Assembly (NCBI GenBank): GCA_023267635.1
Contig: JAHFMX010000001.1
Span: 83,165-147,164 of the forward strand
Reading direction: 5' to 3'
From: a bacterium
Lineage (GTDB): Bacteria; Patescibacteriota; Minisyncoccia; Phycocordibacterales; UBA5272
Length of the DNA: 64,000 nt
Part shown: positions 10,926 to 63,695 of the stretch, piece by piece
How positions within the stretch are numbered: position 1 is the stretch's first letter
Layout of the letters: each line of letters starts with the position of its first letter
Program-made: the position numbers and the translations under genes
Notes under the pieces: generated by a model
The model's database searches: none
Told to the model about the DNA's origin: nothing
Seen by the model: the letters and a program-made list of their open reading frames with translations, nothing else

Positions 10926-10975
10926 TATATATACTCATGTATACTTATATACAATTACAAACAATCATATTACCT

Positions 10976-11227
10976 ATGTCTGGAGAACAAATTTTATCAA
11001 ACGTCGTTACTGAAATCTTCAGCCCGCTCTACCAAGCTGTTGTCGGTGTCGCTATTCTTTATTTTCTCTACGGTGTAGCAAAATATGTTCTTGATCTTAA
11101 TAATCCAGAAAAGCAGACATTTGGAAAGAGTCATCTTTTATGGGGAATGGTTGGACTCTTTATTATTCTTTCAGTCGGAGGGATATTAAGTGCTCTTAAT
11201 GAGTCACTTGGCGGAATGTTTAAATAA
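10976..11227 (+). CDS. T4SS pilin-like small membrane protein (paralog)
   Basis: 83 aa from ATG 10976 (the ORF track starts 10922); ILYFLYGVAKYVLDLNNPEKQTFGKSHLLWGMVGLFIILSVGGIL matches the helix-loop-helix pattern of the paralogs; no cleavable signal peptide evident. Confidence 0.45.
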   Translation: MSGEQILSNVVTEIFSPLYQAVVGVAILYFLYGVAKYVLDLNNPEKQTFGKSHLLWGMVGLFIILSVGGILSALNESLGGMFK

Positions 11228-11255
11228 AAAGCTAGTGTGCTAGAATGAGCAACAT

Positions 11256-12647
11256 ATGAACGGAACTGACATGAATGCAATGGAAAAAATCGTATCGCTT
11301 TGTAAGCGTCGAGGTTTTATTTTCCCTGGGTCTGAAATCTATGGAGGACTTGCTGGAACATTTGATTACGGGCCTCTTGGTGTATTACTCAAGAATAATA
11401 TTGAAAATAGTTGGTGGGATCATTTTGTTACCAATCGAGATGATATGTATGGAATTGACGCTGCTATTTTGATGAATCCACGAGCGTGGGAAGCAAGCGG
11501 GCACGTTGGAGGATTTTCTGATCCATTGGTTGAAGATCTTGAAACAAAGAAAAGATACCGAGCTGATCACCTTCTTGAAGCAAGTGGACACAGCGCCCTT
11601 GGCTTGAATCTTGAGGAACTTAATTCAAAAATCCAGGCACTAGCATTAGCTGGAAAGTTAGAAAATTCAGAGGGAACGGTGTTAAAGAAAATTGGCGAGG
11701 TACGACAGTTTAATATGATGTTTAAGACCCAAGTTGGAGCTACTGAAGATCCAACATCAATTTCCTATTTACGCCCAGAAACAGCAGGTGGTATGTTTGT
11801 TAATTTTAAAAATGTTGTTGATAGTTTCCACCCGAAACTTCCATTTGGTCTCGCTCAGATTGGAAAAGCATTCCGCAATGAAATTGCTCCTCGTGATTTT
11901 ATTTTTCGTCTACGAGAACTTGGACAGATGGAGATCGAATATTTTTGTCACCCTTCTAAATGGGAAGAGAGATTTGAACATCTTCGCACCGAGTTTCTTA
12001 CATGGATGATTTCTATTGGATTACCAGAATCAAAAATACATGAAGTGGAAATTGGGGATGGGGACAGAGCTCACTATAGTAAACGCACAATTGATTTTGA
12101 ATTTGATTTTCCTATGGGGCAGAAAGAACTTGCGGGGCTAGCTTACCGTACAGACTTTGATTTGAAGGCGCATAGCGAATACAGCAAAACTGACCTTTCT
12201 TATTTTGATGAAGAAACAAAAGAGCGATTTATTCCACACTGTATTGAACCATCTATTGGAATTGAGAGAACATTTCTTGCTGTTCTTTCGTCTGCGTATA
12301 ATGAAGAAGAGATTGACGGAGAAATTAGAACAGTGCTTCGTTTTAATCCAAAAGTTGCTCCAATCCAGATCGCGGTGCTCCCACTTTCGAAAAAAGAAGA
12401 ACTTTCAGTTCCTGCAGAAAAAATTGCTAAAGATCTTAAAAAGATTGCACGAGTGTCATATGATGAAACGCAGTCAATTGGAAAGCGATATCGTCGTCAG
12501 GATGAAATTGGTACACCATTTTGCGTGACCGTTGACTTCGATACGCTCACTGATAACGCCGTAACAGTCCGTGATCGCGATACGATGGAACAAGTCCGTA
12601 TCCCAGTGGCTGATTTAGCTTCTTATTTTTCAGATAAACTTGTTTAA
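11256..12647 (+). CDS. glyQS: glycine--tRNA ligase (dimeric class II form)
   Basis: 463 aa; KRRGFIFPGSEIYGGLAGTFDYGPLG and class II motifs; extended -10 TGCTAGAAT 9 nt upstream of ATG. Confidence 0.9.
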   Translation: MNGTDMNAMEKIVSLCKRRGFIFPGSEIYGGLAGTFDYGPLGVLLKNNIENSWWDHFVTNRDDMYGIDAAILMNPRAWEASGHVGGFSDPLVEDLETKKRYRADHLLEASGHSALGLNLEELNSKIQALALAGKLENSEGTVLKKIGEVRQFNMMFKTQVGATEDPTSISYLRPETAGGMFVNFKNVVDSFHPKLPFGLAQIGKAFRNEIAPRDFIFRLRELGQMEIEYFCHPSKWEERFEHLRTEFLTWMISIGLPESKIHEVEIGDGDRAHYSKRTIDFEFDFPMGQKELAGLAYRTDFDLKAHSEYSKTDLSYFDEETKERFIPHCIEPSIGIERTFLAVLSSAYNEEEIDGEIRTVLRFNPKVAPIQIAVLPLSKKEELSVPAEKIAKDLKKIARVSYDETQSIGKRYRRQDEIGTPFCVTVDFDTLTDNAVTVRDRDTMEQVRIPVADLASYFSDKLV

Positions 12648-50859: not shown

Positions 50860-51103
50860 TACTTTAAACACACCTTCATAACGTAACCTCTCTCACTGTG
50901 TGTTTCAATAATCTTTAAGTTGTATATAGATTACTCACCACATGTCCCTTAATAAAGATTTTGTTAGGTGATTGATTTTGCGTCGGACGCAGATTTTATC
51001 TTTGCACTGTAAGCTTTTTTAATTTGTACTTTATCCCCAGGTTAATCTAAAGTTATGCTGCGGCTATGCACTATTTTTACTATACTAAGTAATATCGAAG
51101 TAC

Positions 51104-54100
51104 ATGCAAGAGATTAGTTGCCCTCCATTTTTTATATATAAGAAAATTCTAATCTCTACCCTTGTCTTCTTTATTGGTATCACTTCTGTAGAGGTTCACG
51201 CAGCATCAGATTTTCAGCAGAATTTAAACACCACATCTTCTGTATCTGGCAATAGAGATACATCTTTCCAGTATCCGTCACTTTCAAACCTCATCACCTT
51301 ACGTGTAGCCACCCCCTCTAAACACAACCTTTCTCTTCCTGGAACATCTAATCGAGAAATAGCTGTCGCAGGTCCAACTATCTCTCTCATTGGAAACGTA
51401 CAACCACGAGAACTTATTTTGCGTAATAGTGAATCTTCGTTATTTTCTTTCCCATCATTCTTTTCTCTTCAGATTACTAGATACAAAATGCCACGTCTTG
51501 CACAGATTGAACTGCTCCCAGTAAAAAAATATGTATCATTTGCTTTGGGTGCAAATACAGTGCGTGCAGCAGAAGAGCTTTCAACAAAAAAAGCATCTCT
51601 TCCTTTCATTGATCAATTGTCACTCTCTTTCTTTTGCGCACTTGCTCCACGCAAACAGGTCATTGATAGTAGACGCTGTGATTATCAAACACTTGCAAGT
51701 GGGCGACTTGATTTACCGTCTGGTCTTGCAACAAACATCAATCCATCGGCAGAAGAGCCCTCAGCAACAGAAGAATTACCAGCTCCAACTGAAGTAGCCA
51801 CAACAAACCAAACCCCACCTCTCTCTCCATCTTCACCAATCTACCTTACCCGCTACATCACCTCCTACATCGGCATCCCAGGTCCAGCAGGTAAAGATGG
51901 AACAGATGGTAAAGACGGAGTAAACGGTATCACGTCATCTGCACCAGAAGGCTATGGTTCCTACCTCATTCCATCGTACTCTTCTCCAGCAACATCAATT
52001 GGAGTTTCTACCATCTCCTACCTACGACAAACAACCATTGAACTTCCTGTCATTACAGGAGGTACTGCAACTAATTTGTCTCTCATCACACCAACGGTAC
52101 AAGGTGGAGTATTCAGTGGTCTCTCACTCTTCAATGACTCTGCATCATTCACTGGTTCAGTAACCATCAACAACCTTACAGCTACCTCAACCACAGTAAC
52201 CAATCTCACTGCAACTAACGCCACTACCACCACCGCATACATTGATGTCCTTACCGTAGGATCATCCACTGCAGGAAGCCTTACACTAAGTGGCACCTTA
52301 AACGTAGCAGGGACTTCAACGCTTGCAACTACTACCGCATCTTCTTTCACTGCAACCTACGCAACCACAACAAACCTCTTCACGCAGAATCTTTCTGTGG
52401 GTAATGCTTCAACAACAGGGAATCAATCAATTGATGGACAATTCAACGTATCAGGAACATCAACCCTTGGAGCAAAGGTTTTCCTTAACGGAAGTGTGGT
52501 AGTTGGTACTTCCACTGATGAACTGTTCACCGTAAACGCACTTGTTAACTCAAACATTACTCCATCTCAGAACATTACCTATGACCTCGGTTCTGCATCT
52601 TTCTACTGGAGAAACCTCTACGCTAACAACATTAACGTAAACAGTATCTCTGCTGCCTCAACCACCATCTCTGGAACATCTAACAATGACTTCATTGTGA
52701 ACTCAGACAATGGTTCCTCTGATGCTGAAGATGCTTCCCTTGTGTTCTTCCGCGGACTCTCTACACCAAATGCTCTCATACGTTGGAACTCTGCAACCAA
52801 GCGTATTGAATCCAACATGAGTTTCAAAGTACAAAACGAAACACCAACCACAGGAACCACAACACTCACCGTACAAGCAGGCGCAGGACAGTCATCGACC
52901 AATCTCTTCGAACTCCTTAACAATGCAGGAACCAAACTCTCTGCATTTACCTCACAAGGATGGCTAGGTATTGGAACTACCACTCCCTCTACATCTCTTC
53001 ATCTTACTACTAACGATGGACTCATCATTCCAGCAGGTACAACAGCACAGCGTCCAAGCACAACTCTCCCAGGTGTCATCAGATACAACACTACTAACAC
53101 TGGCTTTGAAGGATTCAATGGTTCTACCTGGGGATCTCTTGGTGGAGTAAGTGATGCAGATCAAAATACCTACATCTCAGCTGAGAACTCAGCTGGAGCA
53201 AACAATGATGAACTGAAGTTCTATACCGCAGGTACACTACGAGGCATCTTCTCCTCAACAGGGAACTTTGGGGTGGGGACGAGTACGCCAGGGGCGAAGT
53301 TGACAGTTGATGGTACTCTAACAGCTGGTGATACTGTTATAAGTGGATCAGGTAATGCCAATGGTCTTACTATTAAAAATGGAACCACGAACCAAGCATA
53401 TTCAGGTGGGTTGACTCTTGCATCAAATGATGGCACATCTGTAATCTCAAGAATGTATGCCTCTACAGCAGGTTTGTTTTTGTCTTATGGTGGTGCAGAT
53501 ATTGGAGCTTTCACTGGTAGTGGATTATCCATCGTAAGTGGGGCAACGTATAAAATTAACGGGGCAACAATCGCTCAAGCTTCCACCACCCTCAATAACT
53601 ACTTCTTTGGTAATTCTGGAAATTTGACGATGACAGGTAATTACAACACCGCAACTGGTTATACCTCTCTCTTCTCCAACACCACCGGCTCCTACAACAC
53701 CGCGAATGGTGCGCAATCCCTCTACTCCAACACCACCGGATCCTACAACACCGCGAATGGCAGCTATTCCCTCATCTACAACACCACCGGAAACTTCAAC
53801 ACCGCGAATGGCAGCTATTCCCTCCAATCCAACACCACCGGCGGTGCCAATACCGCGAATGGTTATGCTTCCCTCAACTACAACACCACCGGCTCCAACA
53901 ACACTGCAAATGGCAGCTATTCCCTCAACCACAACACCACCGGCACCCAAAACACCGCGAATGGTATGTATTCTCTCTACTCCAACACCACCGGATCCTA
54001 CAACACCGCAAATGGTTATCAATCCCTCAACTACAACACCACCGGCACCCAAAACACCGCGAATGGCATGAATTCTCTCTACTCCAACACCACCGGATCC

Positions 54101-55987
54101 TACAACACCGCGAATGGTATGTATTCTCTCTACTCCAACACCACCGGCACCCAAAACACCGCGAATGGTTATGCTTCCCTCAACTACAACACCACCGGCT
54201 CCAACAACACTGCAAATGGCGTGAACGCCCTCTTCTCCAACACTACAGGTAGTTTCAACACCGCTTTTGGCTACCAAGCTGGATACGGAGATGGAACTGT
54301 AAATCAAGCTTCTATTATAGACAATTACATGACCTTCCTTGGCTACCAAGCATCTCGTGATGCATCTGTTGCTTCCACAACAGCTCTCACTAACGGAACT
54401 GCTATCGGAAAGAATGCTAGAGTCGGTGCTTCAAACACTATTGTCCTTGGGGGTACTGGAGCAGATGCAGTGAATGTGGGGATTGGAACTGTTCTACCAA
54501 CATCTCGACTTAACGTTGTTGGAACAACTACACTTGTTGGATCATCAACCTCTTCTACTGCACTACACGTAATTGGAAATATTGATAACACAGCAACGAG
54601 TACGTTTGCACCGAGACTTATTTCTAGTCCGAGTACTGGAGTAAATCCAGGTTCAGTCTTCGTCTCTGGTCGTTATGCTTATACGGCGAATTTTAATGGC
54701 AACTCTATGTCCATCATCGACATCTCCAATCCAGCTTCTCCTGCAACTATTTCTACCCCAAGTACTGGGTCAGGATCAGGTTCGTATTCAGTCTTCGTCT
54801 CTGGTCGCTATGCGTATGTGGCGAATGTTAATACTAACTCTATGTCCATCATCGACATCTCTAATCCAGCTTCTCCAACAGTTGTAGCTACTTCAAGCAC
54901 TGGAGCTGGCCCATACTCAGTCTTCGTCTCTGGTCGCTATGCGTATACGGCGAATCAAAATGCTGGCACCATCTCCATTATCGACATTTCCAACCCCACT
55001 TCTCCTATAACAGTAGCTACTCCAAGTACTGGAGCTACTCCACGCTCCGTCTTCGTCTCTGGTCGTTATGCGTATGTGGCGAATAGCGGTGGCAGTTCCA
55101 TGTCCATCATCGACATTTCCAATCCAGCTTCTCCAGTTACCGTCTCTACTCCAAGTACTGGAGCTGGCCCACAATCCGTCTTCGTCTCTGGTCGTTATGC
55201 GTATGTGGCAAATAATGCTAGCAGCACCATGTCCATTATCGACATCAAAAACCCTGCATCTGCCGTCACAGTAGCTACTCCAAGCACTGGAGCTGGCCCA
55301 CAATCCGTCTTCGTCTCTGGTCGTTATGCATATGTGGCGAATAATAGTGCTAACACGATGTCTATCATTGACGTCTCAAATCCAAGTTCCCCAGTTACCG
55401 TCTCTACTCCAAGCACTGGAGCTGGCCCATTCTCAGTCTTCGTCTCTGGCCGTTATGCGTATGTGGCGAATAATAGTGCTAGTTCCATCTCCATCCTCGA
55501 CCTCGGTGGTATTGAATCCACTTCAGCTATTATCCATTCGCTTACTACCGGTAATCTTTCAGTTAACAATGACATCTTTGCAAATGGAAATATCGTAGCG
55601 AATGGGGGACTCACCATTGCAAGCGGATTCCAATCCCAAAATAACTCATCTGTGTATGGCTCGCTTAATGTTTCTACAGCAAACAGCGTGTCGCAGCTAC
55701 GTCTAGGTAAAACAAGTTCTGTGTATGCTGATCTAACGCTTGATAGTGGGGGAGATCTTACTTTCACCACAACTGGGTATAACGTTAAAGCAATGAGTAA
55801 CAACTTGTATATTTGTGATAATGCAGGATGTCCAACACTCACCGCTACAAGTACAGCAGGAAACATCTTTGTGGAAAATGCTCAAGTGTTCGGTAATAAT
55901 TTCTCTATTAACCAGACCTCTTCAACCTCTCTTGGTATGTTTGATCATAGTGGCTCACTAATTATGACGTTTGATGAAGCTCCATAG
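51104..55987 (+). CDS. giant secreted surface protein: signal peptide, short collagen-like triplets, Thr-rich beta region, about 13 copies of a 15-aa repeat, 8 LVIVD-type beta-propeller repeats
   Basis: 1627 aa; signal KKILISTLVFFIGITSVEVHA/AS; GIPGPAGKDGTDGKDGVNG; NTANGxxSLxxNTTGxx repeated; SPSTGxGPxSVFVSGRYAYVANxxxxSMSIIDISNPASP repeated 8 times (LVIVD-like). Confidence 0.7.
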   Translation: MQEISCPPFFIYKKILISTLVFFIGITSVEVHAASDFQQNLNTTSSVSGNRDTSFQYPSLSNLITLRVATPSKHNLSLPGTSNREIAVAGPTISLIGNVQPRELILRNSESSLFSFPSFFSLQITRYKMPRLAQIELLPVKKYVSFALGANTVRAAEELSTKKASLPFIDQLSLSFFCALAPRKQVIDSRRCDYQTLASGRLDLPSGLATNINPSAEEPSATEELPAPTEVATTNQTPPLSPSSPIYLTRYITSYIGIPGPAGKDGTDGKDGVNGITSSAPEGYGSYLIPSYSSPATSIGVSTISYLRQTTIELPVITGGTATNLSLITPTVQGGVFSGLSLFNDSASFTGSVTINNLTATSTTVTNLTATNATTTTAYIDVLTVGSSTAGSLTLSGTLNVAGTSTLATTTASSFTATYATTTNLFTQNLSVGNASTTGNQSIDGQFNVSGTSTLGAKVFLNGSVVVGTSTDELFTVNALVNSNITPSQNITYDLGSASFYWRNLYANNINVNSISAASTTISGTSNNDFIVNSDNGSSDAEDASLVFFRGLSTPNALIRWNSATKRIESNMSFKVQNETPTTGTTTLTVQAGAGQSSTNLFELLNNAGTKLSAFTSQGWLGIGTTTPSTSLHLTTNDGLIIPAGTTAQRPSTTLPGVIRYNTTNTGFEGFNGSTWGSLGGVSDADQNTYISAENSAGANNDELKFYTAGTLRGIFSSTGNFGVGTSTPGAKLTVDGTLTAGDTVISGSGNANGLTIKNGTTNQAYSGGLTLASNDGTSVISRMYASTAGLFLSYGGADIGAFTGSGLSIVSGATYKINGATIAQASTTLNNYFFGNSGNLTMTGNYNTATGYTSLFSNTTGSYNTANGAQSLYSNTTGSYNTANGSYSLIYNTTGNFNTANGSYSLQSNTTGGANTANGYASLNYNTTGSNNTANGSYSLNHNTTGTQNTANGMYSLYSNTTGSYNTANGYQSLNYNTTGTQNTANGMNSLYSNTTGSYNTANGMYSLYSNTTGTQNTANGYASLNYNTTGSNNTANGVNALFSNTTGSFNTAFGYQAGYGDGTVNQASIIDNYMTFLGYQASRDASVASTTALTNGTAIGKNARVGASNTIVLGGTGADAVNVGIGTVLPTSRLNVVGTTTLVGSSTSSTALHVIGNIDNTATSTFAPRLISSPSTGVNPGSVFVSGRYAYTANFNGNSMSIIDISNPASPATISTPSTGSGSGSYSVFVSGRYAYVANVNTNSMSIIDISNPASPTVVATSSTGAGPYSVFVSGRYAYTANQNAGTISIIDISNPTSPITVATPSTGATPRSVFVSGRYAYVANSGGSSMSIIDISNPASPVTVSTPSTGAGPQSVFVSGRYAYVANNASSTMSIIDIKNPASAVTVATPSTGAGPQSVFVSGRYAYVANNSANTMSIIDVSNPSSPVTVSTPSTGAGPFSVFVSGRYAYVANNSASSISILDLGGIESTSAIIHSLTTGNLSVNNDIFANGNIVANGGLTIASGFQSQNNSSVYGSLNVSTANSVSQLRLGKTSSVYADLTLDSGGDLTFTTTGYNVKAMSNNLYICDNAGCPTLTATSTAGNIFVENAQVFGNNFSINQTSSTSLGMFDHSGSLIMTFDEAP
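53640..54260 (+). repeat. tandem 45-bp coding repeat, about 13 copies
   Basis: Unit approximately CAACACCACCGGxxCCTACAACACCGCGAATGGxxxxxxxTCCCTC; encodes the 15-aa NTTGxYNTANGxxSL period. Confidence 0.85.
54600..55500 (+). repeat. tandem coding repeat of about 120 bp, 8 copies (LVIVD-like propeller blades)
   Basis: Recurrent GTCTTCGTCTCTGGTCGTTATGCGTATGTGGCGAAT...ATGTCCATCATCGACATTTCCAATCCAGCTTCTCC. Confidence 0.85.
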
Positions 55988-56123
55988 AAATACCACATAG
56001 TAATGTGAATTTTCAATTTCTAATTTTCAATTTTCACTCAATGAGTTAATTTTAAAATTAAAAACATTGGAAATTCATTAAAAATTAGAAATTAAGAATT
56101 AAAAATTATGCTAGCATACACCC

Positions 56124-56909
56124 ATGTTTGAAGAAATAAAAAAGTTCAAAGACCTCATAGTTACATGGTTAGCTTTATTTATAGGGGTTGGTGTCTTCTT
56201 CTTCTTCTTTGGAATGGCACCTGCAACACTTTTTGGGCACTTGGTACATATTCCACTTCCAACCGATGTATCTTTTGCTGCGCAGTTTTTTAGAATGATG
56301 GAGGAATCTATTTTGCCAGCAGGGGTTACTCTTGTTGCGTTAGGTCCGCTCTCTGCTCTTAATACGCAAACGATTGTTGCGTTTATGCTATCTTTTCTGG
56401 TTACGTTTCCATATCTTTTGTATAGACTGGTGCGGTATATTTCTCCAGCGCTCCATACGAATGAGCGTAAAGCTTTTCTCACGGTGCTTGTTCCTGCTAT
56501 AGTTCTTTTCTTCAGCGGAGCACTATTCTCCTATAAGTTTGTTATACCTCCAACATTTAAGGCTTTGTATTCGTATACCGCTGCTACAGGAGTAGTATCT
56601 ATTTTTTCAATGGAAGCTTTTGTTTCAACGGTTGTTACATTTATGGTAGTTTCAGGGTTCTTGTTCTTACTACCTATTTTTATGGTGTTATTAAGTTTCT
56701 TAGGAATCTGTCCACCACCATTTTGGTGGAAGAATTGGCGCTATGCACAGTTCAGCTTTCTAGCCTTCTCTGCTATAATTACACTAGACGGAAGCGGTGT
56801 TAGCATGGTGCTACTCTCTTTGCCTCTGACAGGATTGTATGCTGTCGGGGCTACGGTTGCACAGGTTACACACAAACAAAGTATTACGGAGATTACAGGA
56901 ACAACGTAA
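56124..56909 (+). CDS. tatC: twin-arginine translocase subunit TatC
   Basis: 261 aa, 6 TM; FLVTFPYLLYRLVRYISPALHTNERKAF parallels E. coli TatC ILYQVWAFIAPALYKHERR. Confidence 0.8.
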   Translation: MFEEIKKFKDLIVTWLALFIGVGVFFFFFGMAPATLFGHLVHIPLPTDVSFAAQFFRMMEESILPAGVTLVALGPLSALNTQTIVAFMLSFLVTFPYLLYRLVRYISPALHTNERKAFLTVLVPAIVLFFSGALFSYKFVIPPTFKALYSYTAATGVVSIFSMEAFVSTVVTFMVVSGFLFLLPIFMVLLSFLGICPPPFWWKNWRYAQFSFLAFSAIITLDGSGVSMVLLSLPLTGLYAVGATVAQVTHKQSITEITGTT

Positions 56910-56945
56910 TCTATTTCTATTATTTATTAACTATCTATCACTACT

Positions 56946-57134
56946 ATGTTTGGAATCGGAATACCAGAATTAATTATTCTTGCACTTGCGTTTGGAATCC
57001 TCTTTTTTGGAAGTCACAAGGTGACAGAATTTGCTAAATCATTAGGTAGATTTACTGGTGAATTTAAAAAAGGTAAGCAAGAAGTTGAGCGTGAACTCAA
57101 AGCAGGGGAGGAGGAAGCAAAAGAAGATAAGTAA
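56946..57134 (+). CDS. tatA: twin-arginine translocase subunit TatA/E
   Basis: 62 aa; MFGIGIPELIILALAFGILFFGSHKV..GEFKKG matches the TatA N-terminal TM plus amphipathic helix (FG..KL hinge). Confidence 0.7.
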   Translation: MFGIGIPELIILALAFGILFFGSHKVTEFAKSLGRFTGEFKKGKQEVERELKAGEEEAKEDK

Positions 57135-57163
57135 AAGCAGGGTTGTTTGGTTGGTTAGAATAC

Positions 57164-57442
57164 ATGGAGCACAAAATACATATTCATCGTCAATACGAAG
57201 CGCAAGAAGAATCAATACCAGTTGAATCTAAACGCCGAGCCCTTTTAAAGTACGTTCTTTTTGGCGGTGGATTTTTTATGTTAGGAAAAATTTTTGGCCC
57301 AAGTATAAGTATGTTCTCATCAAGCGGTGAGTTTAGTAGCACAACAGATTTTCAAAATTTTCGTGTAGTTGAGTCAGGCAAGGAGTTGCAATTTTTTGAT
57401 AAAATGGGGAACGAAATTCTTACGTTAGACAAAGAAGCATAG
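57164..57442 (+). CDS. hypothetical small membrane protein
   Basis: 92 aa from ATG 57164; one TM LLKYVLFGGGFFMLGKIFGP. Confidence 0.35.
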   Translation: MEHKIHIHRQYEAQEESIPVESKRRALLKYVLFGGGFFMLGKIFGPSISMFSSSGEFSSTTDFQNFRVVESGKELQFFDKMGNEILTLDKEA

Positions 57443-57486
57443 AATTAATTTTCAATTTCAAATTTTTAATTTTCAATCAATTTACA

Positions 57487-57855
57487 ATGACTGAAGTTAT
57501 TAAAAATAAGTATGATTTAGAGGAAAGGACATTCAAATTTGCAGAAGATGTTATAGGGATATGTAAAACAGTAAAGAAAGACATTGTAAGCACGCCTGTA
57601 ATTTCTCAACTTATTCGTTCTGCGACAAGTATCGGTGCAAATTATATGGAAGCAAACGGTGCCAGTTCTAAAAAGGATTTTATAAATAAGATATTTATTT
57701 GCAAAAAAGAAGCACAAGAAACAAAGTACTGGTTACGAATATTGGCAGTTTGCTTTGATGACAAAAAAGTAGAAATAAGGAAATTATGGAAAGAATGCCA
57801 AGAACTCACTCTTATTTTTTCTAAAATAGCAGCCTCTTCAAAGCTTAAAAATTAA
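57487..57855 (+). CDS. four-helix-bundle protein (23S rRNA IVS protein / Avd-like family)
   Basis: 122 aa; conserved RSATSIGANYMEANGASSKKDF and FICKKEAQETKYWL core typical of the family; paralog at 63190. Confidence 0.7.
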   Translation: MTEVIKNKYDLEERTFKFAEDVIGICKTVKKDIVSTPVISQLIRSATSIGANYMEANGASSKKDFINKIFICKKEAQETKYWLRILAVCFDDKKVEIRKLWKECQELTLIFSKIAASSKLKN

Positions 57856-57980
57856 AATATTTAAGCATTCATTTAAAATTAGAAATTTGTAATTGAAAAT
57901 TACACCTCTTTTATATTTCTGTGGATTTACTACGTACCACAAGGAGGTGTCCGTAGTGTATACTGAAGGGAATAAACACT

Positions 57981-58385
57981 ATGGTAAAAATTTCTGCTAA
58001 CAGATTGGATATGGAGACAAAACGTCTCGAACGTCCTCAGATGAAGAATTACACTGAAACTCTTGTTTCAGTGACTGCAACAACTACAACTATACTTGAT
58101 ATTTCATCTGGAAATGTTTTTGCTATAGCTCAAGCTGCGGCGATTACGACACTTACGATCACCAATATCCCTGCATCTGGAACCGTATGTAGTATTACTA
58201 TCATTAGAACTCATGATGCCACTAGTACAACGTATGGAATAACTTGGCCTGTAGCGTTTAAATGGGCTTCAGCAACCGCACCAACACTTACTCAGACTGC
58301 AAACTCAGTTGATATTATAACTGCTATGACCAAAGATGGGGGAACAACATGGTATGCGTTTGCTGCAGGTCTTAACATGAGCTAG
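57981..58385 (+). CDS. small Thr/Ala-rich beta-structure protein, phage tail-fibre-associated-like
   Basis: 134 aa; alternating T/I/A beta-strand pattern, WPVAFKWASATAPTLTQTAN...DGGTTWYAF. Confidence 0.5.
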   Translation: MVKISANRLDMETKRLERPQMKNYTETLVSVTATTTTILDISSGNVFAIAQAAAITTLTITNIPASGTVCSITIIRTHDATSTTYGITWPVAFKWASATAPTLTQTANSVDIITAMTKDGGTTWYAFAAGLNMS

Positions 58386-58414
58386 CCATTTAATGTCTTT
58401 ACTTCACCTTCACT

Positions 58415-61400
58415 ATGCTAGCAAATAGAACTCTTCAAGCAGCATCAAATACGGGATATCAGATTCAGCGTAGTTTGCGGTTTCGTGGTAATGTAAGCGC
58501 GTATTTAAGTAAAACTTTTGCTACCGGAAACAGAAGGACTTGGACTTTAAGTTGCTGGGTTAAGCGTGGATCGTTGAGCTCTTTTCAAACTATGTTTAGC
58601 GCTGGCACAACTTCTCCTAATTATGCAGGATTTCGCTTTACTGATACTAATGCATTACAATTTTTTGTTGGCGGCGCTGTATCTGTTAATTGTATAACAA
58701 ATGCTGTATATCGTGATCCGTCTGCTTGGTATCATGTAGTTCTTCGTTTCAATACAACTGAAGCAACAGCATCTAATCGTATTATTATCTATGTAAACGG
58801 AACTCAATCTGTATTAGGTACAGCAAATTATCCAAGCCAAAACACTGATTGGGAGGTTAATAATACGTATATTCATACACTTGCAGCACAGTGGATTACC
58901 TCTGCAACTACACATTTCGACGGCTATATGTCTGAAGTTAATTTCATCGATGGACAAGCCTTAGACGCAAACTCCTTTGGCCAAACCGACCCTGTTAGCG
59001 GAGTCTGGTCCGCAAAAAAATATATCGGCACATACGGTAACAATGGATTCTATTTAGATTTTAACGATACGTCTTCTGTTGAAGCTCTTGGGTACGACAA
59101 GCAAACAACCTCACGCACATTCTCAACTGCAGGCACATATAGTTTTACTGTGCCAACATATTCAACTAGTTTAGTGGTGAAGCTTTGGGGAGGTGGAGGT
59201 GGAGGTGGAGGTGGAGGTTCAACGTTTGGAAATAGTGGAACAAACGGAACCGCTACTACATTCTCTACTCTTTCTGCAGGTGGTGGAGGAGGAGGGACGG
59301 GTGCATGGACAGCAAACCCAACAGGATCTTCTGGTGCCGGAGGAACGGCCACAGGGGGAACTATCAATACTAATGGAAACAGTATCGCAACCACAAACGG
59401 GGCCACCACGGGTGCTGGCGCACCAAACGGTGGAGGTAATACAGTCACCGCTACTGCTAATGCGGAACACTATGCTGGAACTGTTCCTGGAGGAGCAGGT
59501 ACAGGAGGGCGTTGGGAGGGTTCTGGAAATCCAACTGGAGGAGCGGGGGGTTCTGGTGCGTATGTAGAAAAAACGTACAATGTTGGTGATTTAATACCAG
59601 GCACTGTTATGTCTATTACAGTTGGCGCTGCCGGTTCTGGTGGTTCTTCTGACGCTGATCAGGGAGCGAATGGGGCAGATGGTCGTATTATGATTATTGT
59701 AGATAGAGTTTTTCTCACTGATGTTTCTAGTGTGGCTGGGTGGACACTTAACACAGGAGTAGGGGGAACACCTTCTATTACGCTTACTTCAGGCGATACT
59801 CGTGTTGCTAATGGTTCAAATAACTCTGTCGGGTACTATAAAACAATTTCAACAGTTATTGGTCAAACATATTATGTGGAGGGGCGTATATTTAACGTTA
59901 GCGTTGGAGCGGCTGATCGCGCCGCTTCTATTGTTAAAGCGGACGTCAGTGCATTTAATGTAAACGTAGTGACTATCGGGTCTGTTCTACAGTCTTCTGG
60001 TAGTGGAACTGTTCGCGGCACATTCGTGGCTACAGCTACTACGACGTATATTTCACTTGCTGCAGATATTCTTACTTCAGGGTCTGCGGATTTTGAGGAT
60101 GTTACTGTGGGAACGGTAGGGTTTATGAATAATTGGACCCCGACGAATATAAGTCTTACCGCAGGCGCTACCTATGACTCAATGCTTGATGTTCCGTTAG
60201 GTGGAGGGGGAAGTGAGAGAGGGAATTACTGTGTTCTTAATCCTTTAATTTCACAGACATCACTTGCTTCAGGGAATCTGTATGCCTCTACTACAGGACA
60301 ATCTGGCGCTGCTGGGACAATAGTTTTTCCATATGCAAAAACAATATTTGAATCAGTGTTTGGGCTCCCCGGTGCATCAAATCATGTTGGAGTAATTCAA
60401 GCAAACTGTACACAGTCGCAACTTCAAACTATAGCGACCGCTGACGGTGTTCTTTACCGATCTGATGGGGGTATTTTTAGAGATACAGGTAGCGGTTATT
60501 CACAAATACAGACCGTTGCAAGCTACACTAACAGTGAGGTGATTGGTGTGGCTGTTGATATTACGGTACCTTCTGTTCAGTTTTACAAAAATGGTTCTGC
60601 TGTCGGTACTCCAGTGTCACTAACGGCTTCCGTATCATATTTACCATTCGTCCATTTTGGAGGGGGTACTCTTAATGCTAATGTTAACTTCGGCCAACGT
60701 CCTTTTACATATACCCCGCCTACTGGATTCAAAGCTCTTCATACGGGTAATCTTCCTATTCCAGCAATTCGAAAACCAAATCAGTATTTCGATGTTATAA
60801 CCTACACAGGAGACAGCTCTTCTTCTAGAAGTATAACTGGACTGCATTTTGCGCCAGATTTTGTGTGGTCTAAACCGCGGACAGCTGGCTCATCCTCAAT
60901 TCCGCATTGGTTGTATGATAGAGTTCGTGGCACAGGCGCCAACTCTCTCTATTCGTTGTCGACAAATAATTCGGATGCAGAATTTGACTCGTTGGGGGGA
61001 TCTGGTAATGCGACAGCCTTCACTTCTGATGGGGTAACCTTTACCTCAGGAACATCTAATAATTTTAATAGAAATGAAAGTGGTGTTTTATTTGTAAACT
61101 GGAACTGGAAAGCCGGAGGCACAGCAGTCACCAACACCGCAGGAACTATCACTTCCCAAGTGAGTGCGAATACCACTTCTGGGTTTTCGATTGTTACTTT
61201 TACAGCTCACGCTGCAGGTTCTGGTACTTTTGGACACGGTCTCGGCGTTGTACCAGCCATGGTTATCGTTAAGTCCAGAAGCAGTGTTACTGATTGGTTT
61301 GTTTATCATAAATCTTTAGGAGAAACTAAAAATGTTCGACTTAATTTGACAGATCCCTCTGATATACGGACAGGTGCTTGGAATGATACAGCTCCGACAT

Positions 61401-61810
61401 CTACTGTTGTTACTCTTGGAAGTAATTGGGCATCATCAGTTTCAATGGTTGCCTACGTCTTTGCGGAAGTTGCTGGGTTTTCAAAATTTGGTAGCTACAC
61501 AGGAAATGGAAGCGCCGACGGTCCATTTGTATATTGTGGATTTAGACCACGGTATGTGATGTGGAAGCGCACAGACACCGCTGGCAACTGGTACATGTTG
61601 GACGCAGTGCGAGGCACATCGCAGCCTATAAACGCTACACTGTATCCGAACCTCTCAAATACGGAGTACTCTGCGTCAACAGAGTTTGTTGATTTCCTGT
61701 CAAACGGCTTCAAGCAAAGAAACACGGAACCTGACAAGAACGGCAGCGGCGGCACATACATCTTCATCGCATTTGCTGAAGCTCCGTTTAAGTACGCGCT
61801 CGCGAGATAG
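58415..61810 (+). CDS. large secreted protein: LamG/concanavalin-like N-terminal domain plus glycine-rich domain (phage tail-fibre type) plus C-terminal beta-rich region
   Basis: 1131 aa; WYHVVLRFNTTEATASNRIIIYVNG (LamG-like jelly-roll); YSFTVPTYSTSLVVKLWGGGGGGGGGGS...ITVGAAGSGGSS..GADGRIMII matches the glycine-rich domain of phage tail-fibre proteins. Confidence 0.65.
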   Translation: MLANRTLQAASNTGYQIQRSLRFRGNVSAYLSKTFATGNRRTWTLSCWVKRGSLSSFQTMFSAGTTSPNYAGFRFTDTNALQFFVGGAVSVNCITNAVYRDPSAWYHVVLRFNTTEATASNRIIIYVNGTQSVLGTANYPSQNTDWEVNNTYIHTLAAQWITSATTHFDGYMSEVNFIDGQALDANSFGQTDPVSGVWSAKKYIGTYGNNGFYLDFNDTSSVEALGYDKQTTSRTFSTAGTYSFTVPTYSTSLVVKLWGGGGGGGGGGSTFGNSGTNGTATTFSTLSAGGGGGGTGAWTANPTGSSGAGGTATGGTINTNGNSIATTNGATTGAGAPNGGGNTVTATANAEHYAGTVPGGAGTGGRWEGSGNPTGGAGGSGAYVEKTYNVGDLIPGTVMSITVGAAGSGGSSDADQGANGADGRIMIIVDRVFLTDVSSVAGWTLNTGVGGTPSITLTSGDTRVANGSNNSVGYYKTISTVIGQTYYVEGRIFNVSVGAADRAASIVKADVSAFNVNVVTIGSVLQSSGSGTVRGTFVATATTTYISLAADILTSGSADFEDVTVGTVGFMNNWTPTNISLTAGATYDSMLDVPLGGGGSERGNYCVLNPLISQTSLASGNLYASTTGQSGAAGTIVFPYAKTIFESVFGLPGASNHVGVIQANCTQSQLQTIATADGVLYRSDGGIFRDTGSGYSQIQTVASYTNSEVIGVAVDITVPSVQFYKNGSAVGTPVSLTASVSYLPFVHFGGGTLNANVNFGQRPFTYTPPTGFKALHTGNLPIPAIRKPNQYFDVITYTGDSSSSRSITGLHFAPDFVWSKPRTAGSSSIPHWLYDRVRGTGANSLYSLSTNNSDAEFDSLGGSGNATAFTSDGVTFTSGTSNNFNRNESGVLFVNWNWKAGGTAVTNTAGTITSQVSANTTSGFSIVTFTAHAAGSGTFGHGLGVVPAMVIVKSRSSVTDWFVYHKSLGETKNVRLNLTDPSDIRTGAWNDTAPTSTVVTLGSNWASSVSMVAYVFAEVAGFSKFGSYTGNGSADGPFVYCGFRPRYVMWKRTDTAGNWYMLDAVRGTSQPINATLYPNLSNTEYSASTEFVDFLSNGFKQRNTEPDKNGSGGTYIFIAFAEAPFKYALAR
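59190..59222 (+). repeat. (GGAGGT)5 hexanucleotide microsatellite encoding poly-Gly
   Basis: ggaggtggaggtggaggtggaggtggaggt within the Gly-rich domain coding sequence. Confidence 0.85.
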
Positions 61811-62029
61811 GGGTCTAATTAAACCGATTACAGTTTAATTAATTTCTAATTCTCAATTTTAAATTTCTATTGAATGAGTTAAAGCTTCAATGTTTTTAAA
61901 ATTAAATTCATTAAAAATTGATTGAAAATTCAAAATTTGAAATTGAAAATTAATAAGGTATTCCAAACACGTGTGGATGTATCCAGTACTCTTGAGACCA
62001 GACCTGTTGTATACTATAAATATAAATCT

Positions 62030-63148
62030 ATGATAGGAAAAATAGTTAATTTCATCCAGTATAATAACTTCTTCACACTTACTCTTATGTTTGTGTTTAT
62101 GGGGGCAAGTGCAACATTTGCTGCAAGTCCTGATGCTCGTGCGAGTATTATTGACCAAAAGGAAACCGTTCGTTCAGTTGATAACACCTATCTTATCAAT
62201 ACCGACTTCACGCTCTTTGAGGTGGGGCTAAAAATTCAGTCTGTTAAAGAAGATGATGAGTGGTACTACATTGACTACACCTACAACACTGCGGAAGTAG
62301 TTGATTATGTGTGGATGAGGGTTGCAAAGACAGCTTCAATGAAAGTAACTAAAAAGGAACTAGGAGCCAAAGATCTTGGTCTCTATGTTGCTGAACAATT
62401 AGGCCAGGTAACTGATCAGAAACTCGCATACCTACAAGATATTCAAAAGATAGAAAAGAAAATTGGCATGACACAGAAGGTTGTTGCTACGGAGTATTCT
62501 GGTTTAGTCGGGCAGTTTTTAAGTGCTGATGAAAAAACCTTCGAAGGGTATGTTCCTGTTAAGCCGCCAATACTTGTTGCAGCCTTTGAGTCAACAGGGG
62601 AGAACACAACATTGATTGGCACAGAGTTAGGAACGACCTACGGAGTACCAACCCCAACCCCACTTTCTCCTGAACAAATACAACGATTGATTTCAGATGC
62701 TGTGCGACAGCTACTCGCTGGAGATACTGCTACGACAACTGCGTCAACCACAATTGCTGTCATTGATACACCAACAACAGGAGGAGGGGGAGGTTCAACT
62801 CCAGCAGTGTCGACAGGGACGACCACTCCAGTTGATACATCAACTTCAACACCTGTAATTGCTTCAACAACGCCGACGGTAACTGGGACGACTACTCCAG
62901 CAGTAACTCCAACTGCGTCAACAACTCCATCAACTACTGCAACAACTACACCGTCAGATCCTGTAGCAACTTCTACTCCTGCAGAACCAACACCTGTGTC
63001 TGAGCCAGTTACTACGCCTGAGCCAACTCCAACTCCAACTCCAACTCCAACTCCTGAACCTGTAGTGGAGCCTACTCCTGCACCAGAACCAACACCAACA
63101 CCAGAACCGGCTCCTGCTCCTGTGGATGCAGTCACAACAACCCCTTAA
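62030..63148 (+). CDS. secreted protein with Thr/Pro-rich C-terminal linker
   Basis: Start set at ATG 62030 (the ORF track starts 61922 inside the AT-rich repeat); signal peptide FFTLTLMFVFMGASATFAASP; C-terminal TPTPTPTPTPEP low complexity encoded by a (CCAACT)n repeat. Confidence 0.5.
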   Translation: MIGKIVNFIQYNNFFTLTLMFVFMGASATFAASPDARASIIDQKETVRSVDNTYLINTDFTLFEVGLKIQSVKEDDEWYYIDYTYNTAEVVDYVWMRVAKTASMKVTKKELGAKDLGLYVAEQLGQVTDQKLAYLQDIQKIEKKIGMTQKVVATEYSGLVGQFLSADEKTFEGYVPVKPPILVAAFESTGENTTLIGTELGTTYGVPTPTPLSPEQIQRLISDAVRQLLAGDTATTTASTTIAVIDTPTTGGGGGSTPAVSTGTTTPVDTSTSTPVIASTTPTVTGTTTPAVTPTASTTPSTTATTTPSDPVATSTPAEPTPVSEPVTTPEPTPTPTPTPTPEPVVEPTPAPEPTPTPEPAPAPVDAVTTTP

Positions 63149-63189: not shown

Positions 63190-63555
63190 ATGACTCAAAT
63201 TATAAAAAAGGAATATGATTTAGAAAATAGAACGGCAGAGTTTGGAGAAAATATTATTAGATTTTGTAGAACTCTAAAATTAGATATCATAACCACACCT
63301 CTTGTTTCTCAGATAGTAAGATCTGCCACCAGTGTTGGCGCTAATTATATGGAGGCGAACGGTGCTAGTTCTAAAAAGGATTTCAGTAACAAGATATTTA
63401 TTTGCAAAAAGGAGATTCAAGAGACTAAACACTGGTTACGGATGCTTGCAGTTAATTTGGAAGATAGAAAAGTTGAAATAAGGGTTCTCTGGAAAGAAGC
63501 GCAAGAGCTTACCTTAATTTTTTCAAAAATAGCTTCATCAACCAAAAAGGGCTAA
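63190..63555 (+). CDS. four-helix-bundle protein (Avd-like family), paralog of 57487 gene
   Basis: 121 aa; about 70% aa identity to 57487..57855 including RSATSVGANYMEANGASSKKDF and FICKKEIQETKHWL; about 40 nt of upstream sequence also conserved between the two copies. Confidence 0.7.
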   Translation: MTQIIKKEYDLENRTAEFGENIIRFCRTLKLDIITTPLVSQIVRSATSVGANYMEANGASSKKDFSNKIFICKKEIQETKHWLRMLAVNLEDRKVEIRVLWKEAQELTLIFSKIASSTKKG

Positions 63556-63695
63556 TTATTTAGTAATTATAGTTTAAAAATTGATTAGAAATTAAGAACT
63601 AAAAATTAAAAATTGGAAATCGCTGATTCTATACACAAGCTAAAGGATACAGCGCTCTTGCCTTAACCCTTTAAATACGCTATAATAAACCAACT

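What the first reader, a model, noticed from the sequence alone, without database searches (positions are those of the whole stretch)
51104..55987. 1627-aa multi-domain surface protein with three distinct repeat systems
A signal peptide is followed by a short collagen-like G-x-y stretch, a Thr-rich beta region, about 13 tandem 15-aa repeats (NTANGxxSLxxNTTG, from 45-bp DNA units) and 8 LVIVD-type propeller repeats. Giant surface proteins of this kind are characteristic of episymbiotic CPR bacteria and are candidates for host attachment. The near-identical DNA repeats make the gene prone to copy-number variation.
Basis: partly seen in the sequence, partly recalled or inferred. Interest (0 to 1): 0.55.

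Follow-up and report, generated by a model that had tools for sequence, protein, structure and literature searches.

The report
Modular tail-fibre-like surface fibre gene
This intact 1627-residue gene of an ultrasmall (CPR/Patescibacteria) bacterium most likely encodes a secreted three-chain fibre built from interchangeable modules also found in phage tail fibres and bacterial adhesins, and it varies between closely related strains, which fits a role in attaching to other cells without proving it.

Summary
The ORF (51104-55987, +) is real, intact and identical in a second assembly.

- The short repeat is 17 aa / 51 bp, not 15 aa / 45 bp. There are 12 good copies plus one degenerate copy.
- There are 7 LVIVD blades, not 8.
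- The DNA repeats average 77% identity, so they are not near-identical.

The protein is a mosaic of modules:
- a Sec-type signal peptide;
- a conserved N-terminal domain;
- a conserved 6-triplet collagen-like stretch;
- beta-rich stalk modules joined by a G-[IV]-G-T-x-x-P-x-x-x-L motif, which matches the solved Bdellovibrio MAT fibre Bd2133;
- a 7-bladed LVIVD propeller;
- an undescribed C-terminal cap domain, with no Pfam or PDB match and at least 510 protein clusters.

A paralogue on the same contig shares the N-terminal 600 aa at 82% identity but ends in a phage S74 chaperone module. One otherwise identical assembly lacks exactly six 17-aa units. A sister lineage has deleted the distal gene together with 7 kb downstream.

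Best reading: a trimeric, tail-fibre-like surface adhesin with swappable tips. This is a new variant of a known kind, and its function is inferred, not shown.

The parts
51104..55987 (+). Complete gene, 1627 aa plus stop codon
   Evidence: The ORF is listed. The identical protein is in the public collection (P0001). The same gene was called in an independent assembly, L001.
51104..51202 (+). Signal-peptide-like N-terminus, aa 1-33 (KK, hydrophobic ILISTLVFFIGITSV, then VHA|A)
   Evidence: It holds the only hydrophobic window of the protein (Kyte-Doolittle 15-residue mean 2.41). There is no twin-arginine. The assignment is rule-based only.
51203..51823 (+). N-terminal domain, aa 34-240, with two conserved Cys; the presumed cell-proximal base
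   Evidence: It is shared with paralogue P0003 (where it follows a cytoplasmic HTH and a hydrophobic segment) and with P0005, P0006, P0074, P0076, P0078 and P0082.
51872..51928 (+). Collagen-like stretch of six G-x-y triplets, aa 257-275, directly after the PIYLTRYITSYI motif
   Evidence: Its position is conserved in homologues of 35-80% identity, which have 4-8 triplets and variable X/Y residues. Pfam Collagen is only E 0.4.
52001..52966 (+). Thr-rich stalk (aa 300-480, 24% Thr) plus a conserved stalk module (aa 480-621) with the YDLGSxxxYWxxxY ... FFRG ... PNAL motifs
   Evidence: Composition is. The module at roughly query aa 357-632 (core about 411-627) is shared with P0011, P0012, P0034, P0040, P0041 and P0044. 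The alignment shows 32 invariant columns. No Pfam or PDB match was found.
52967..53011 (+). Junction motif 1, GIGTTTPSTSLHL (aa 622-636)
   Evidence: The motif was found, where starts and ends of homology segments cluster at this position. The same motif aligns to the solved MAT fibre Bd2133 (8ond, E 5.1e-5).
53012..53269 (+). Stalk module aa 637-722 with the GVIRYNTTNTGFEGFNGSTWGSLGG motif
   Evidence: tblastn finds 53-55% identity to cyanophage virion structural proteins and gp7 baseplate proteins (E about 3e-14).
53270..53314 (+). Junction motif 2, GVGTSTPGAKLTV (aa 723-737); homology with the S74-type paralogue ends here
53642..54253 (+). Array of twelve 17-aa (51-bp) units, xNTANGxxSLxxNTTGx, aa 847-1050, with a higher-order period of 153 bp
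54254..54478 (+). Degenerate 13th unit and the closing part of the head-like module, aa 1051-1125 (…TAIGKNARVGASNTIVLGG…)
   Evidence: It is conserved with homologues of the 17-aa module and modelled at pLDDT about 85.
53852..53914 (+). First copy of the 63-bp perfect direct repeat (second copy at 54158-54220); these two copies bound the 306-bp indel
   Evidence: L001 lacks exactly 306 bp between the two copies.
54158..54220 (+). Second copy of the 63-bp perfect direct repeat
54479..54523 (+). Junction motif 3, GIGTVLPTSRLNV (aa 1126-1140), preceding the propeller module
   Evidence: 11 homology segments start in the aa 1120-1140 bin.
54602..55513 (+). LVIVD beta-propeller, aa 1167-1470: seven 43-aa units (129 bp) plus a preceding strand-like segment
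   Evidence: PF08309 E 1.6e-51 with 7 stretches; TIGR02276. PDB sequence matches are to the beta-propeller proteins 6-phosphogluconolactonase (6nau, E 4e-5) and hydrazine synthase beta subunit (5c2v); the seven-blade reading rests on the 7 units. Units are listed.
55514..55657 (+). Post-propeller conserved segment, aa 1471-1518 (ESTSAIIHSLTTGNLSVNNDIFANGN…)
   Evidence: It is conserved after the propeller in P0007, P0008, P0013, P0015, P0016 and P0018 (sequences; segments).
55658..55984 (+). C-terminal cap domain, aa 1519-1627, with invariant C-x4-C and TATSTAGNxFVE
52447..63093 (.). 10.6-kb segment missing from a sister lineage: the distal 3.5 kb of this gene, tatC, tatA, a 23S-IVP gene, and the 134-aa, 1131-aa and 408-aa genes
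   Evidence: blastn of L005 (GCA_021733405.1) against the window.

Best explanation
The gene encodes a secreted, fibre-shaped surface protein of a Paceibacteria-type CPR bacterium. It is most likely a homotrimer, built like a phage tail fibre or a Bdellovibrio 'mosaic adhesive trimer' (MAT).

Proposed mechanism, with each step marked:
1. Export by Sec through the N-terminal signal peptide (inferred from sequence).
2. The conserved N-terminal domain (aa 34-240) stays at the cell surface as the base (inferred from the paralogue, whose copy of this domain follows a cytoplasmic HTH and a hydrophobic segment).
3. Three chains register through the short collagen-like stretch and the beta-rich stalk modules, which are delimited by the G-[IV]-G-T-x-x-P-x-x-x-L motif (motif and its match to Bd2133 shown; trimerisation inferred).
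4. The distal half presents a YadA-like-head beta-roll made of the 17-aa repeats, then three laterally displayed 7-bladed LVIVD propellers, one per chain, as the likely ligand-binding surfaces. It ends in a lineage-specific C-terminal cap, which may nucleate folding and registration in the way the S74 chaperone or tip domains do in related fibres (fold assignments shown; roles inferred).
5. The gene diversifies in three ways: module exchange at the junction motifs, gain or loss of 17-aa units by recombination between repeats, and whole-segment deletion (all three kinds of variation observed).

The biological role is most likely adhesion to a host or partner cell or to a surface (inferred).
For: - The ORF is intact and is the same in two assemblies.
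- The signal-like N-terminus is the only hydrophobic segment. There is no LPXTG signal and no C-terminal transmembrane segment.
- The collagen-like G-x-y run is conserved in position, while the number of triplets (4-8) and the X/Y residues vary among homologues.
- A profile of the stalk has a single PDB hit, the trimeric MAT fibre Bd2133 (8ond, E 5.1e-5), aligned through the GNVGIGTxxPxxKLxV motif. The MAT paper describes such motifs as capping loops of intertwined trimeric beta-helices, S74 and non-S74 subfamilies, and tip swapping between members with about 75% identical N-termini (PMC10769870).
- The same pattern is seen here. Paralogue P0003, on the same 195-kb contig, is 82% identical over aa 130-737. 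It then diverges exactly at junction motif 2 and carries Peptidase_S74 (E 4.5e-16).
- The architecture is mosaic, and homology breakpoints cluster at the three junction motifs.
- The LVIVD propeller matches at E 1.6e-51.
- Modules are shared with annotated phage tail fibres and virion proteins.
- Variation is observed: a 306-bp indel of six units and a 10.6-kb deletion in a sister lineage.
- The chromosomal context is housekeeping genes.
Against: - No experiment and no multimer prediction was possible, so trimerisation is inferred from analogy and from six G-x-y triplets, which alone would be too few for a stable triple helix.
- The Pfam Collagen and YadA_head models do not match at sequence level. 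The PDB profile search with the 17-aa module found nothing.
- The match to Bd2133 is short, carried mainly by a motif, and modest (25.8 bits).
- The C-terminal cap model is only moderately confident (pLDDT 74, pTM 0.48) and has no fold match, so its role is a guess.
- No retention mechanism at the cell surface is demonstrated if the signal peptide is cleaved.
- The gene is lost in a sister lineage, so it is not essential.
- Adhesion and any host specificity are untested.
Confidence: 0.6

Rival explanations
1. It is the same fibre but in reverse orientation. The conserved C-terminal cap would be a lineage-specific cell-envelope anchoring or sorting domain, comparable in logic to other C-terminal sorting domains, and the N-terminal part would point outward after signal-peptide cleavage.
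For: The cap is strikingly conserved. It sits at the very C-terminus of 92 of 104 proteins whose lengths range from about 120 to 3300 aa. That pattern is more typical of a sorting, anchoring or assembly domain than of a variable receptor-binding tip. The named carriers are Patescibacteria, and none was found in viral contigs with the one pattern tried.
Against: Paralogues P0003, P0004 and P0011 carry a cytoplasmic HTH domain and a hydrophobic segment N-terminal to the shared domain. This places the N-terminal end at the membrane. In MAT and phage fibres the conserved N-terminus is the attachment end (PMC10769870). The cap has no recognisable anchor motif, transmembrane segment or LPXTG signal. 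Some proteins carry several internal partial copies of the cap.
Confidence: 0.15
2. It is a monomeric multi-domain envelope protein rather than a trimeric fibre adhesin, for example a component associated with the surface layer. On this reading the beta-solenoid and LVIVD propeller are structural or enzymatic domains.
Confidence: 0.15
3. It is a phage-derived receptor-binding protein, such as a prophage remnant, a tailocin or a component of a phage-like particle, and not a protein of the cell surface.
For: PHROG matches to virion structural and tail spike families reach E 8.7e-35. tblastn hits fall in 63 phage records annotated as tail fibre. In the same 10.6-kb strain-variable segment, the 134-aa and 1131-aa genes match tail-fibre and virion structural PHROGs (E 3.7e-14 and 4.6e-175), and the 1131-aa protein has no signal peptide.
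Against: This protein has a signal-peptide-like N-terminus, which phage fibres assembled in the cytoplasm lack. No capsid, portal, terminase, tail tube or integrase gene appears among the window ORFs scanned, which cover most ORFs of at least 250 aa; those with a Pfam match are housekeeping. Its first 1.3 kb lies in the conserved syntenic backbone. tatC and tatA lie between it and the phage-like genes. The C-terminal cap was not found in viral contigs (a single pattern, so a weak test).
Confidence: 0.1

Closest known systems
Bdellovibrio bacteriovorus mosaic adhesive trimer (MAT) fibres, e.g. Bd2133 (PDB 8ond), non-S74 subgroup (PMC10769870)
   Same: A signal peptide is followed by a conserved N-terminal domain, a long beta-rich stalk and a variable C-terminal part. 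The G-x-G-x-x-x-P-x-x-x-L junction or capping motif is shared, and a profile of the stalk hits Bd2133 at E 5.1e-5. Paralogues with very similar N-termini have exchanged C-termini, one with S74 and one without. The organism likewise lives by contact with other bacteria.
   Different: Outside the motif region there is no detectable sequence similarity. The MAT N-terminal domain was not compared. The host organism is a CPR bacterium, presumably without an outer membrane. The distal part carries a YadA-like head beta-roll, an LVIVD propeller and a different, undescribed cap instead of the MAT tips (TNF-like, C-type lectin or beta-sandwich). The cap has no fold match in the PDB library searched.
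YadA-like head domains of trimeric autotransporter adhesins (UspA1, BpaC, BoaA, EibD, CbpF, YadA)
   Different: There is no YadA_anchor beta-barrel and no coiled-coil stalk. Polarity is opposite, since trimeric autotransporters are anchored at the C-terminus. The repeat is 17 aa. The Pfam YadA_head model gives no match at E<=1, and PDB sequence and profile searches give none either.
Phage tail fibres and tailspikes with NTAxG-type repeats and S74 intramolecular chaperones (Pelagibacter phages HTVC111P/112P, Roseobacter phage CRP-1, cyanophage P-SSM2; K1F endosialidase type)
   Same: The 17-aa module is 37-51% identical to annotated tail-fibre proteins. A stalk motif is 53-55% identical to cyanophage virion proteins. 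The paralogue ends in Peptidase_S74.
   Different: This protein has a signal peptide, lies among chromosomal housekeeping genes with no phage morphogenesis genes nearby, lacks S74 itself, and carries an LVIVD propeller and a cap domain not seen in the viral contigs scanned.
LVIVD-repeat (PF08309) cell-surface proteins of archaea and bacteria (PMC2447325)
   Same: Seven canonical repeats of about 43 aa match at E 1.6e-51 in a secreted protein.
   Different: Here the propeller is one module inside a fibre-like mosaic, flanked by junction motifs and a conserved exit segment. No function is known for LVIVD propellers in general.

Membership tests
LVIVD repeat proteins (Pfam PF08309) | Tandem repeats of about 42 aa matching the LVIVD profile above the gathering score | tested here: met
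   171.8 bits against a cut-off of 20.2, E 1.6e-51, 7 stretches. TIGR02276 matches at E 7e-14.
LVIVD repeat proteins (Pfam PF08309) | The repeats form a closed beta-propeller (7 blades expected here) | tested here: inconclusive
   There are seven 43-aa units plus a unit-tail-like strand before the first unit. The region aligns to the beta-propeller proteins 6-phosphogluconolactonase (6nau) and hydrazine synthase beta subunit (5c2v).
Collagen triple-helix repeat (Pfam PF01391) | Match to the collagen profile above the gathering score | tested here: not met
   E 0.4, 10.9 bits against a cut-off of 27.2. Only six triplets are present.
Collagen triple-helix repeat (Pfam PF01391) | Uninterrupted G-x-y periodicity conserved in homologues | tested here: met
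   Six triplets at aa 257-275. Homologues have 4-8 triplets at the same position with variable X/Y residues.
Trimeric autotransporter adhesins | C-terminal YadA-type membrane anchor (12-stranded barrel, PF03895) | tested here: not met
   No such Pfam match at E<=1. The C-terminus is the cap domain, which has no Pfam or PDB match.
Trimeric autotransporter adhesins | YadA-like head (left-handed parallel beta-roll) | tested here: met
MAT (mosaic adhesive trimer) fibre superfamily | Signal peptide followed by the conserved MAT N-terminal beta-rich domain of about 130 aa | not tested
   A signal-like N-terminus and a conserved N-terminal domain exist. No MAT N-terminal sequence or structure was available for comparison, as that domain is unsolved according to PMC10769870.
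MAT (mosaic adhesive trimer) fibre superfamily | Beta-helix stalk modules bounded by the capping-loop motif | tested here: met
   Three motifs at aa 622, 723 and 1126. The stalk profile hits Bd2133 (8ond) at E 5.1e-5 through this motif.
MAT (mosaic adhesive trimer) fibre superfamily | Intertwined homotrimer | not testable with these tools
   Only monomer prediction was available.
MAT (mosaic adhesive trimer) fibre superfamily | Paralogue set with shared N-termini and exchanged tips, in S74 and non-S74 subgroups | tested here: met
   The query has no S74. P0003, on the same contig, is 82% identical over aa 130-737 and carries Peptidase_S74 at E 4.5e-16.
Phage tail fibres with S74 intramolecular chaperone | C-terminal Peptidase_S74 domain with the SDxxxK motif | tested here: not met
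   It is absent from this protein and present only in the paralogue.

The most novel reading that the evidence does not exclude
Paceibacteria-type CPR bacteria may possess their own repertoire of chimeric trimeric fibres, analogous to the Bdellovibrio MAT system. These would be assembled from modules exchanged with phages at a conserved junction motif and closed by a lineage-specific, still undescribed C-terminal cap domain (at least 510 protein clusters, no Pfam or PDB relative). Such fibres would set which host cells the episymbiont can attach to. Some paralogues fuse the fibre to a cytoplasmic DNA-binding domain, which would allow contact with a partner to be signalled across the membrane.
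Probability: 0.3. Interest if true: 0.7.

Novelty: new variant of a known kind. Interest (0 to 1): 0.5.

Why it matters
How uncultivated CPR/Patescibacteria recognise and hold on to their hosts is largely unknown outside a few cultivated Saccharibacteria. In those, type IV pili and 'multiple adhesins' are required (PMC10633639, PMC12206443).

This locus gives a concrete, testable candidate family for the far larger Paceibacteria branch. The candidate is a fibre whose modules, junction motif and paralogue pattern mirror the prey-recognition fibres of Bdellovibrio. Strain-level variation is already visible in public assemblies.

The locus also defines a compact, widespread C-terminal domain with no family assignment. 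That domain could serve as a search handle for cataloguing such fibres in metagenomes.

Taken on its own, though, the gene is a predictable kind of object: a large repeat-rich surface protein in a CPR genome.

Tried and rejected
- A global MAFFT alignment of 50 full-length homologues failed.
- A mixed-module alignment (A1) placed the 17-aa rows on the propeller region, so it was discarded. Modules were then aligned separately.
- blastp without composition correction gave meaningless full-length low-identity alignments and was replaced.
- PDB sequence searches with the 17-aa module found nothing, either as a single sequence or as a profile. The single stalk sequence gave only a chance hit.
The A2 pattern found no viral relative.
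- Exact look-ups of P0001, P0003 and the ribonucleotide reductase gene found no contig, so the paralogue's own locus could not be read.
- The second homologue search, with the N-terminal stalk, missed even the known close relatives because low-complexity words swamped the candidate filter.
- The promoter and terminator scan was at chance level, apart from one terminator-like hairpin after rnhB.
- The idea that the neighbouring tatC/tatA genes export this protein was rejected, because the signal has KK and no twin-arginine.
- The long antisense ORFs inside the repeats (for example 53525-54349, minus strand) were treated as by-products of the repeat composition.
Full report
**1. What is in the sequence**

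The window holds one uninterrupted ORF at 51104..55987 on the + strand, encoding 1627 aa. The identical protein is in the public collection on a 194,963-bp NCBI contig (P0001). An independent ENA assembly (L001, 22.6 kb) carries the same gene in the same gene order. The protein is rich in S, T, G and N, which together make up 48% of residues. This composition explains the local reversal of GC skew and the long antisense ORFs inside the repeats.

**2. The repeats**

Tandem Repeats Finder reports a 51-bp period at 53642-54243, with 11.8 copies, 77% matches and a 153-bp higher-order period. It also reports a 129-bp period at 54653-55501.

- At protein level the short repeat is 17 aa, xNTANGxxSLxxNTTGx. 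There are twelve regular units at aa 847-1050 and a degenerate thirteenth.
- The 51-bp units average 77% DNA identity, ranging from 57% to 96%. The longest exact repeat in the gene is 63 bp. 'Near-identical' is therefore an overstatement.
- The long repeat is the LVIVD repeat (PF08309, E 1.6e-51, seven stretches). SVFVSGRYAY occurs seven times at 43-aa spacing.
- A segment before the first unit (aa 1170-1183, PRLISSPSTGVNPG) resembles the tail of a unit. This would let the first strand close the last blade. I therefore count seven blades, not eight. This region aligns to the beta-propeller proteins 6-phosphogluconolactonase (6nau, E 4e-5) and hydrazine synthase beta subunit (5c2v).
- The collagen-like run GIPGPAGKDGTDGKDGVNG (aa 257-275) has six triplets. 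It fails the Pfam Collagen model (E 0.4), but only about 2e-4 such runs are expected by chance. It recurs at the same place, directly after a P-x-Y-[IL]-T-x-Y-[IV] motif, in homologues of 35-80% identity. Those homologues have 4 to 8 triplets and varying X/Y residues.

**3. N- and C-termini**

The only strongly hydrophobic segment is aa 15-29. It is preceded by KK and followed by V-H-A|A. This is a Sec-type signal by the usual rules; no predictor was available. There is no twin-arginine, so the adjacent tatC/tatA genes are probably unrelated. There is no LPXTG signal and no C-terminal transmembrane segment.

**4. The protein is a mosaic**

Different parts of the protein are shared with different sets of proteins.

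| Query region (aa) | Shared with |
|---|---|
| 130-737 | P0003 (82% identity), P0004 (78%) |
| 141-637 and 1520-1624 | P0005, P0006 |
| about 357-632 (core about 411-627) | P0011, P0012, P0034, P0040, P0041, P0044 |
| 810-1140 (17-aa module) | about twenty proteins |
| 1133-1549 (propeller module) | about twenty-five proteins, sometimes placed before the 17-aa module |

Three copies of the motif G-[IV]-G-T-x-x-P-x-x-x-L-x-V lie at aa 622, 723 and 1126. Starts and ends of homology segments cluster at these positions. The identity with P0003 ends exactly at the second motif.

**5. Fold assignments**

- The 17-aa module (aa 790-1150) was modelled with an 18-row alignment. It gave a solenoid with one strand per 17 residues, core pLDDT above 90 and pTM 0.75.
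- At sequence level neither Pfam nor PDB searches connect this module to those heads. It is, however, 37-51% identical to annotated tail-fibre proteins in 63 phage records, and it matches PHROG virion and tailspike families.
- A six-row profile of the stalk (aa 400-800) has a single PDB hit, Bd2133 of Bdellovibrio (8ond, E 5.1e-5). The alignment runs through GNLGLGTAAPTSALHV and GNVGIGATAPTAKLEV. In the MAT paper such motifs are the capping loops of intertwined trimeric beta-helix domains, and they are shared with S74-type phage fibres (PMC10769870).
- The stalk motif GVIRYNTTNTGFEGFNGSTWGSLGG is 53-55% identical to cyanophage virion structural and gp7 proteins.

**6. The C-terminal cap**

The last 109 residues, with an invariant C-x4-C and TATSTAGNxFVE, define a domain family. 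A profile search found 510 cluster representatives at E<=1e-3 and 242 at E<=1e-10. Of 104 near-full-length matches, 92 end within three residues of the protein's C-terminus, in proteins of about 120 to 3300 aa. A few proteins carry tandem partial copies.

**7. Variation**

- L001 is 100% identical to window 41383-64000 except for a clean 306-bp gap, which equals six 17-aa units or two 153-bp super-units. The junction lies in the 63-bp perfect repeat at 53852-53914 / 54158-54220. This is either real copy-number heterogeneity or a collapse in the short-read assembly. Reads are needed to decide.
- In a sister lineage (84-90% nucleotide identity; GCA_021733405.1 and three further assemblies) the syntenic gene is only 475 aa.
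- The alignment to that lineage breaks at window 52446 and resumes at 63094. The last 55 bp of the 408-aa ORF are still present there, which indicates a deletion in the sister lineage.
- The deleted segment carries the distal 3.5 kb of this gene, tatC, tatA, a 23S-IVP gene and the 134-aa, 1131-aa and 408-aa genes. The gene is therefore accessory.

**8. Context**

The ORFs scanned across the rest of the window that have a Pfam match are housekeeping genes: gyrA, gap, transketolase, tgt, uvrABC, ribonucleotide reductase, dnaE, rnhB, RNase J and transporters. No phage morphogenesis genes were found. The organism is a CPR bacterium of the Paceibacteria type, judging from the names of all named homologues and from an 87%-identical relative of the paralogue in a Candidatus Nomurabacteria genome.

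**9. Interpretation**

The evidence fits a secreted homotrimeric fibre organised like phage tail fibres and the Bdellovibrio MAT fibres. Its parts, in order, are:
- a conserved base;
- a short collagen-like registration segment;
- stalk modules bounded by capping motifs;
- a YadA-like head;
- one LVIVD propeller per chain;
- a conserved cap.

The paralogue pair, with the same first 600 residues and different distal halves (one with S74), reproduces the 'tip swapping' described for MAT proteins.

The following are shown: the modules, their fold-level or profile-level relatives, the breakpoints and the variation. The following are inferred: export, trimerisation, orientation, the role of the cap, and adhesion.

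Rival readings are listed with their tests: reverse orientation with the cap as anchor, a monomeric envelope protein, and a phage-derived particle component. The signal peptide and the chromosomal backbone argue against a purely phage role. The trimer-specific relatives argue against a monomer. The HTH-bearing paralogues argue for an N-terminal base.

**10. Verdict**

The interpretation of a surface protein and candidate adhesin is reasonable, and it is sharpened here to a tail-fibre-like modular fibre. This is a new variant of a known kind rather than a new kind. The undescribed cap domain and the strain-level variation are the most useful leads.

Noticed in passing
window 57981-58385 (+) and 58415-61810 (+): Two genes just downstream look like phage receptor-binding proteins. 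The 134-aa protein matches the C-terminal parts of several PHROG tail-fibre families (best E 3.7e-14). The 1131-aa protein (Laminin_G_3, SPRY, DUF7483) matches a virion structural PHROG at E 4.6e-175 and a tail-fibre PHROG at E 1e-82, and it has no signal peptide. No other phage genes are nearby.
   Followed up: partly
window 52447-63093: This 10.6-kb segment is absent from a sister lineage (GCA_021733405.1 and three read-set assemblies). It includes tatC and tatA, so that lineage either lacks the Tat pathway or encodes it elsewhere.
   Followed up: partly
P0003 (same 194,963-bp contig, outside the window); also P0004, P0011, P0075; L002 25-4398: Paralogues of this fibre begin with a cytoplasmic helix-turn-helix domain (HTH_23, E 6e-7) and a moderately hydrophobic segment before the shared extracellular part. 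P0003 also carries a phage tail-collar-like motif (CPAGWILADGTSGTPDLRG) and Peptidase_S74, followed by about 400 further residues. A DNA-binding domain fused to an extracellular fibre is unusual and was not explained.
   Followed up: partly
window 57487-57855 (+), and a second copy near 63200-63560 (L001 21502-21867): Two paralogous '23S rRNA intervening sequence protein' genes (PF05635) lie in and next to the variable segment, one inside it and one just beyond its downstream end. The sister lineage keeps only one.
   Followed up: no
window 56077-56108: A 7-bp tandem repeat, ATTAAAA x 4.6, lies in the 136-bp spacer between this gene and tatC.
   Followed up: no
window 61922-63148 (+): This 408-aa protein has a signal- or transmembrane-like segment and a long Pro/Thr-rich C-terminal tail resembling the tail of paralogue P0003. 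It has no Pfam or PHROG match.
   Followed up: no
window 50977-50993 (+): A terminator-like hairpin lies after rnhB, about 110 bp upstream of the fibre gene. This suggests the gene has its own promoter, but none was convincingly identified.
   Followed up: no
L009 168-419 (ENA contig matching window near 10970-11230): A small T4SS_pilin-family gene (PF18895) lies directly upstream of the tRNA synthetase gene at window 11256-12647.
   Followed up: no
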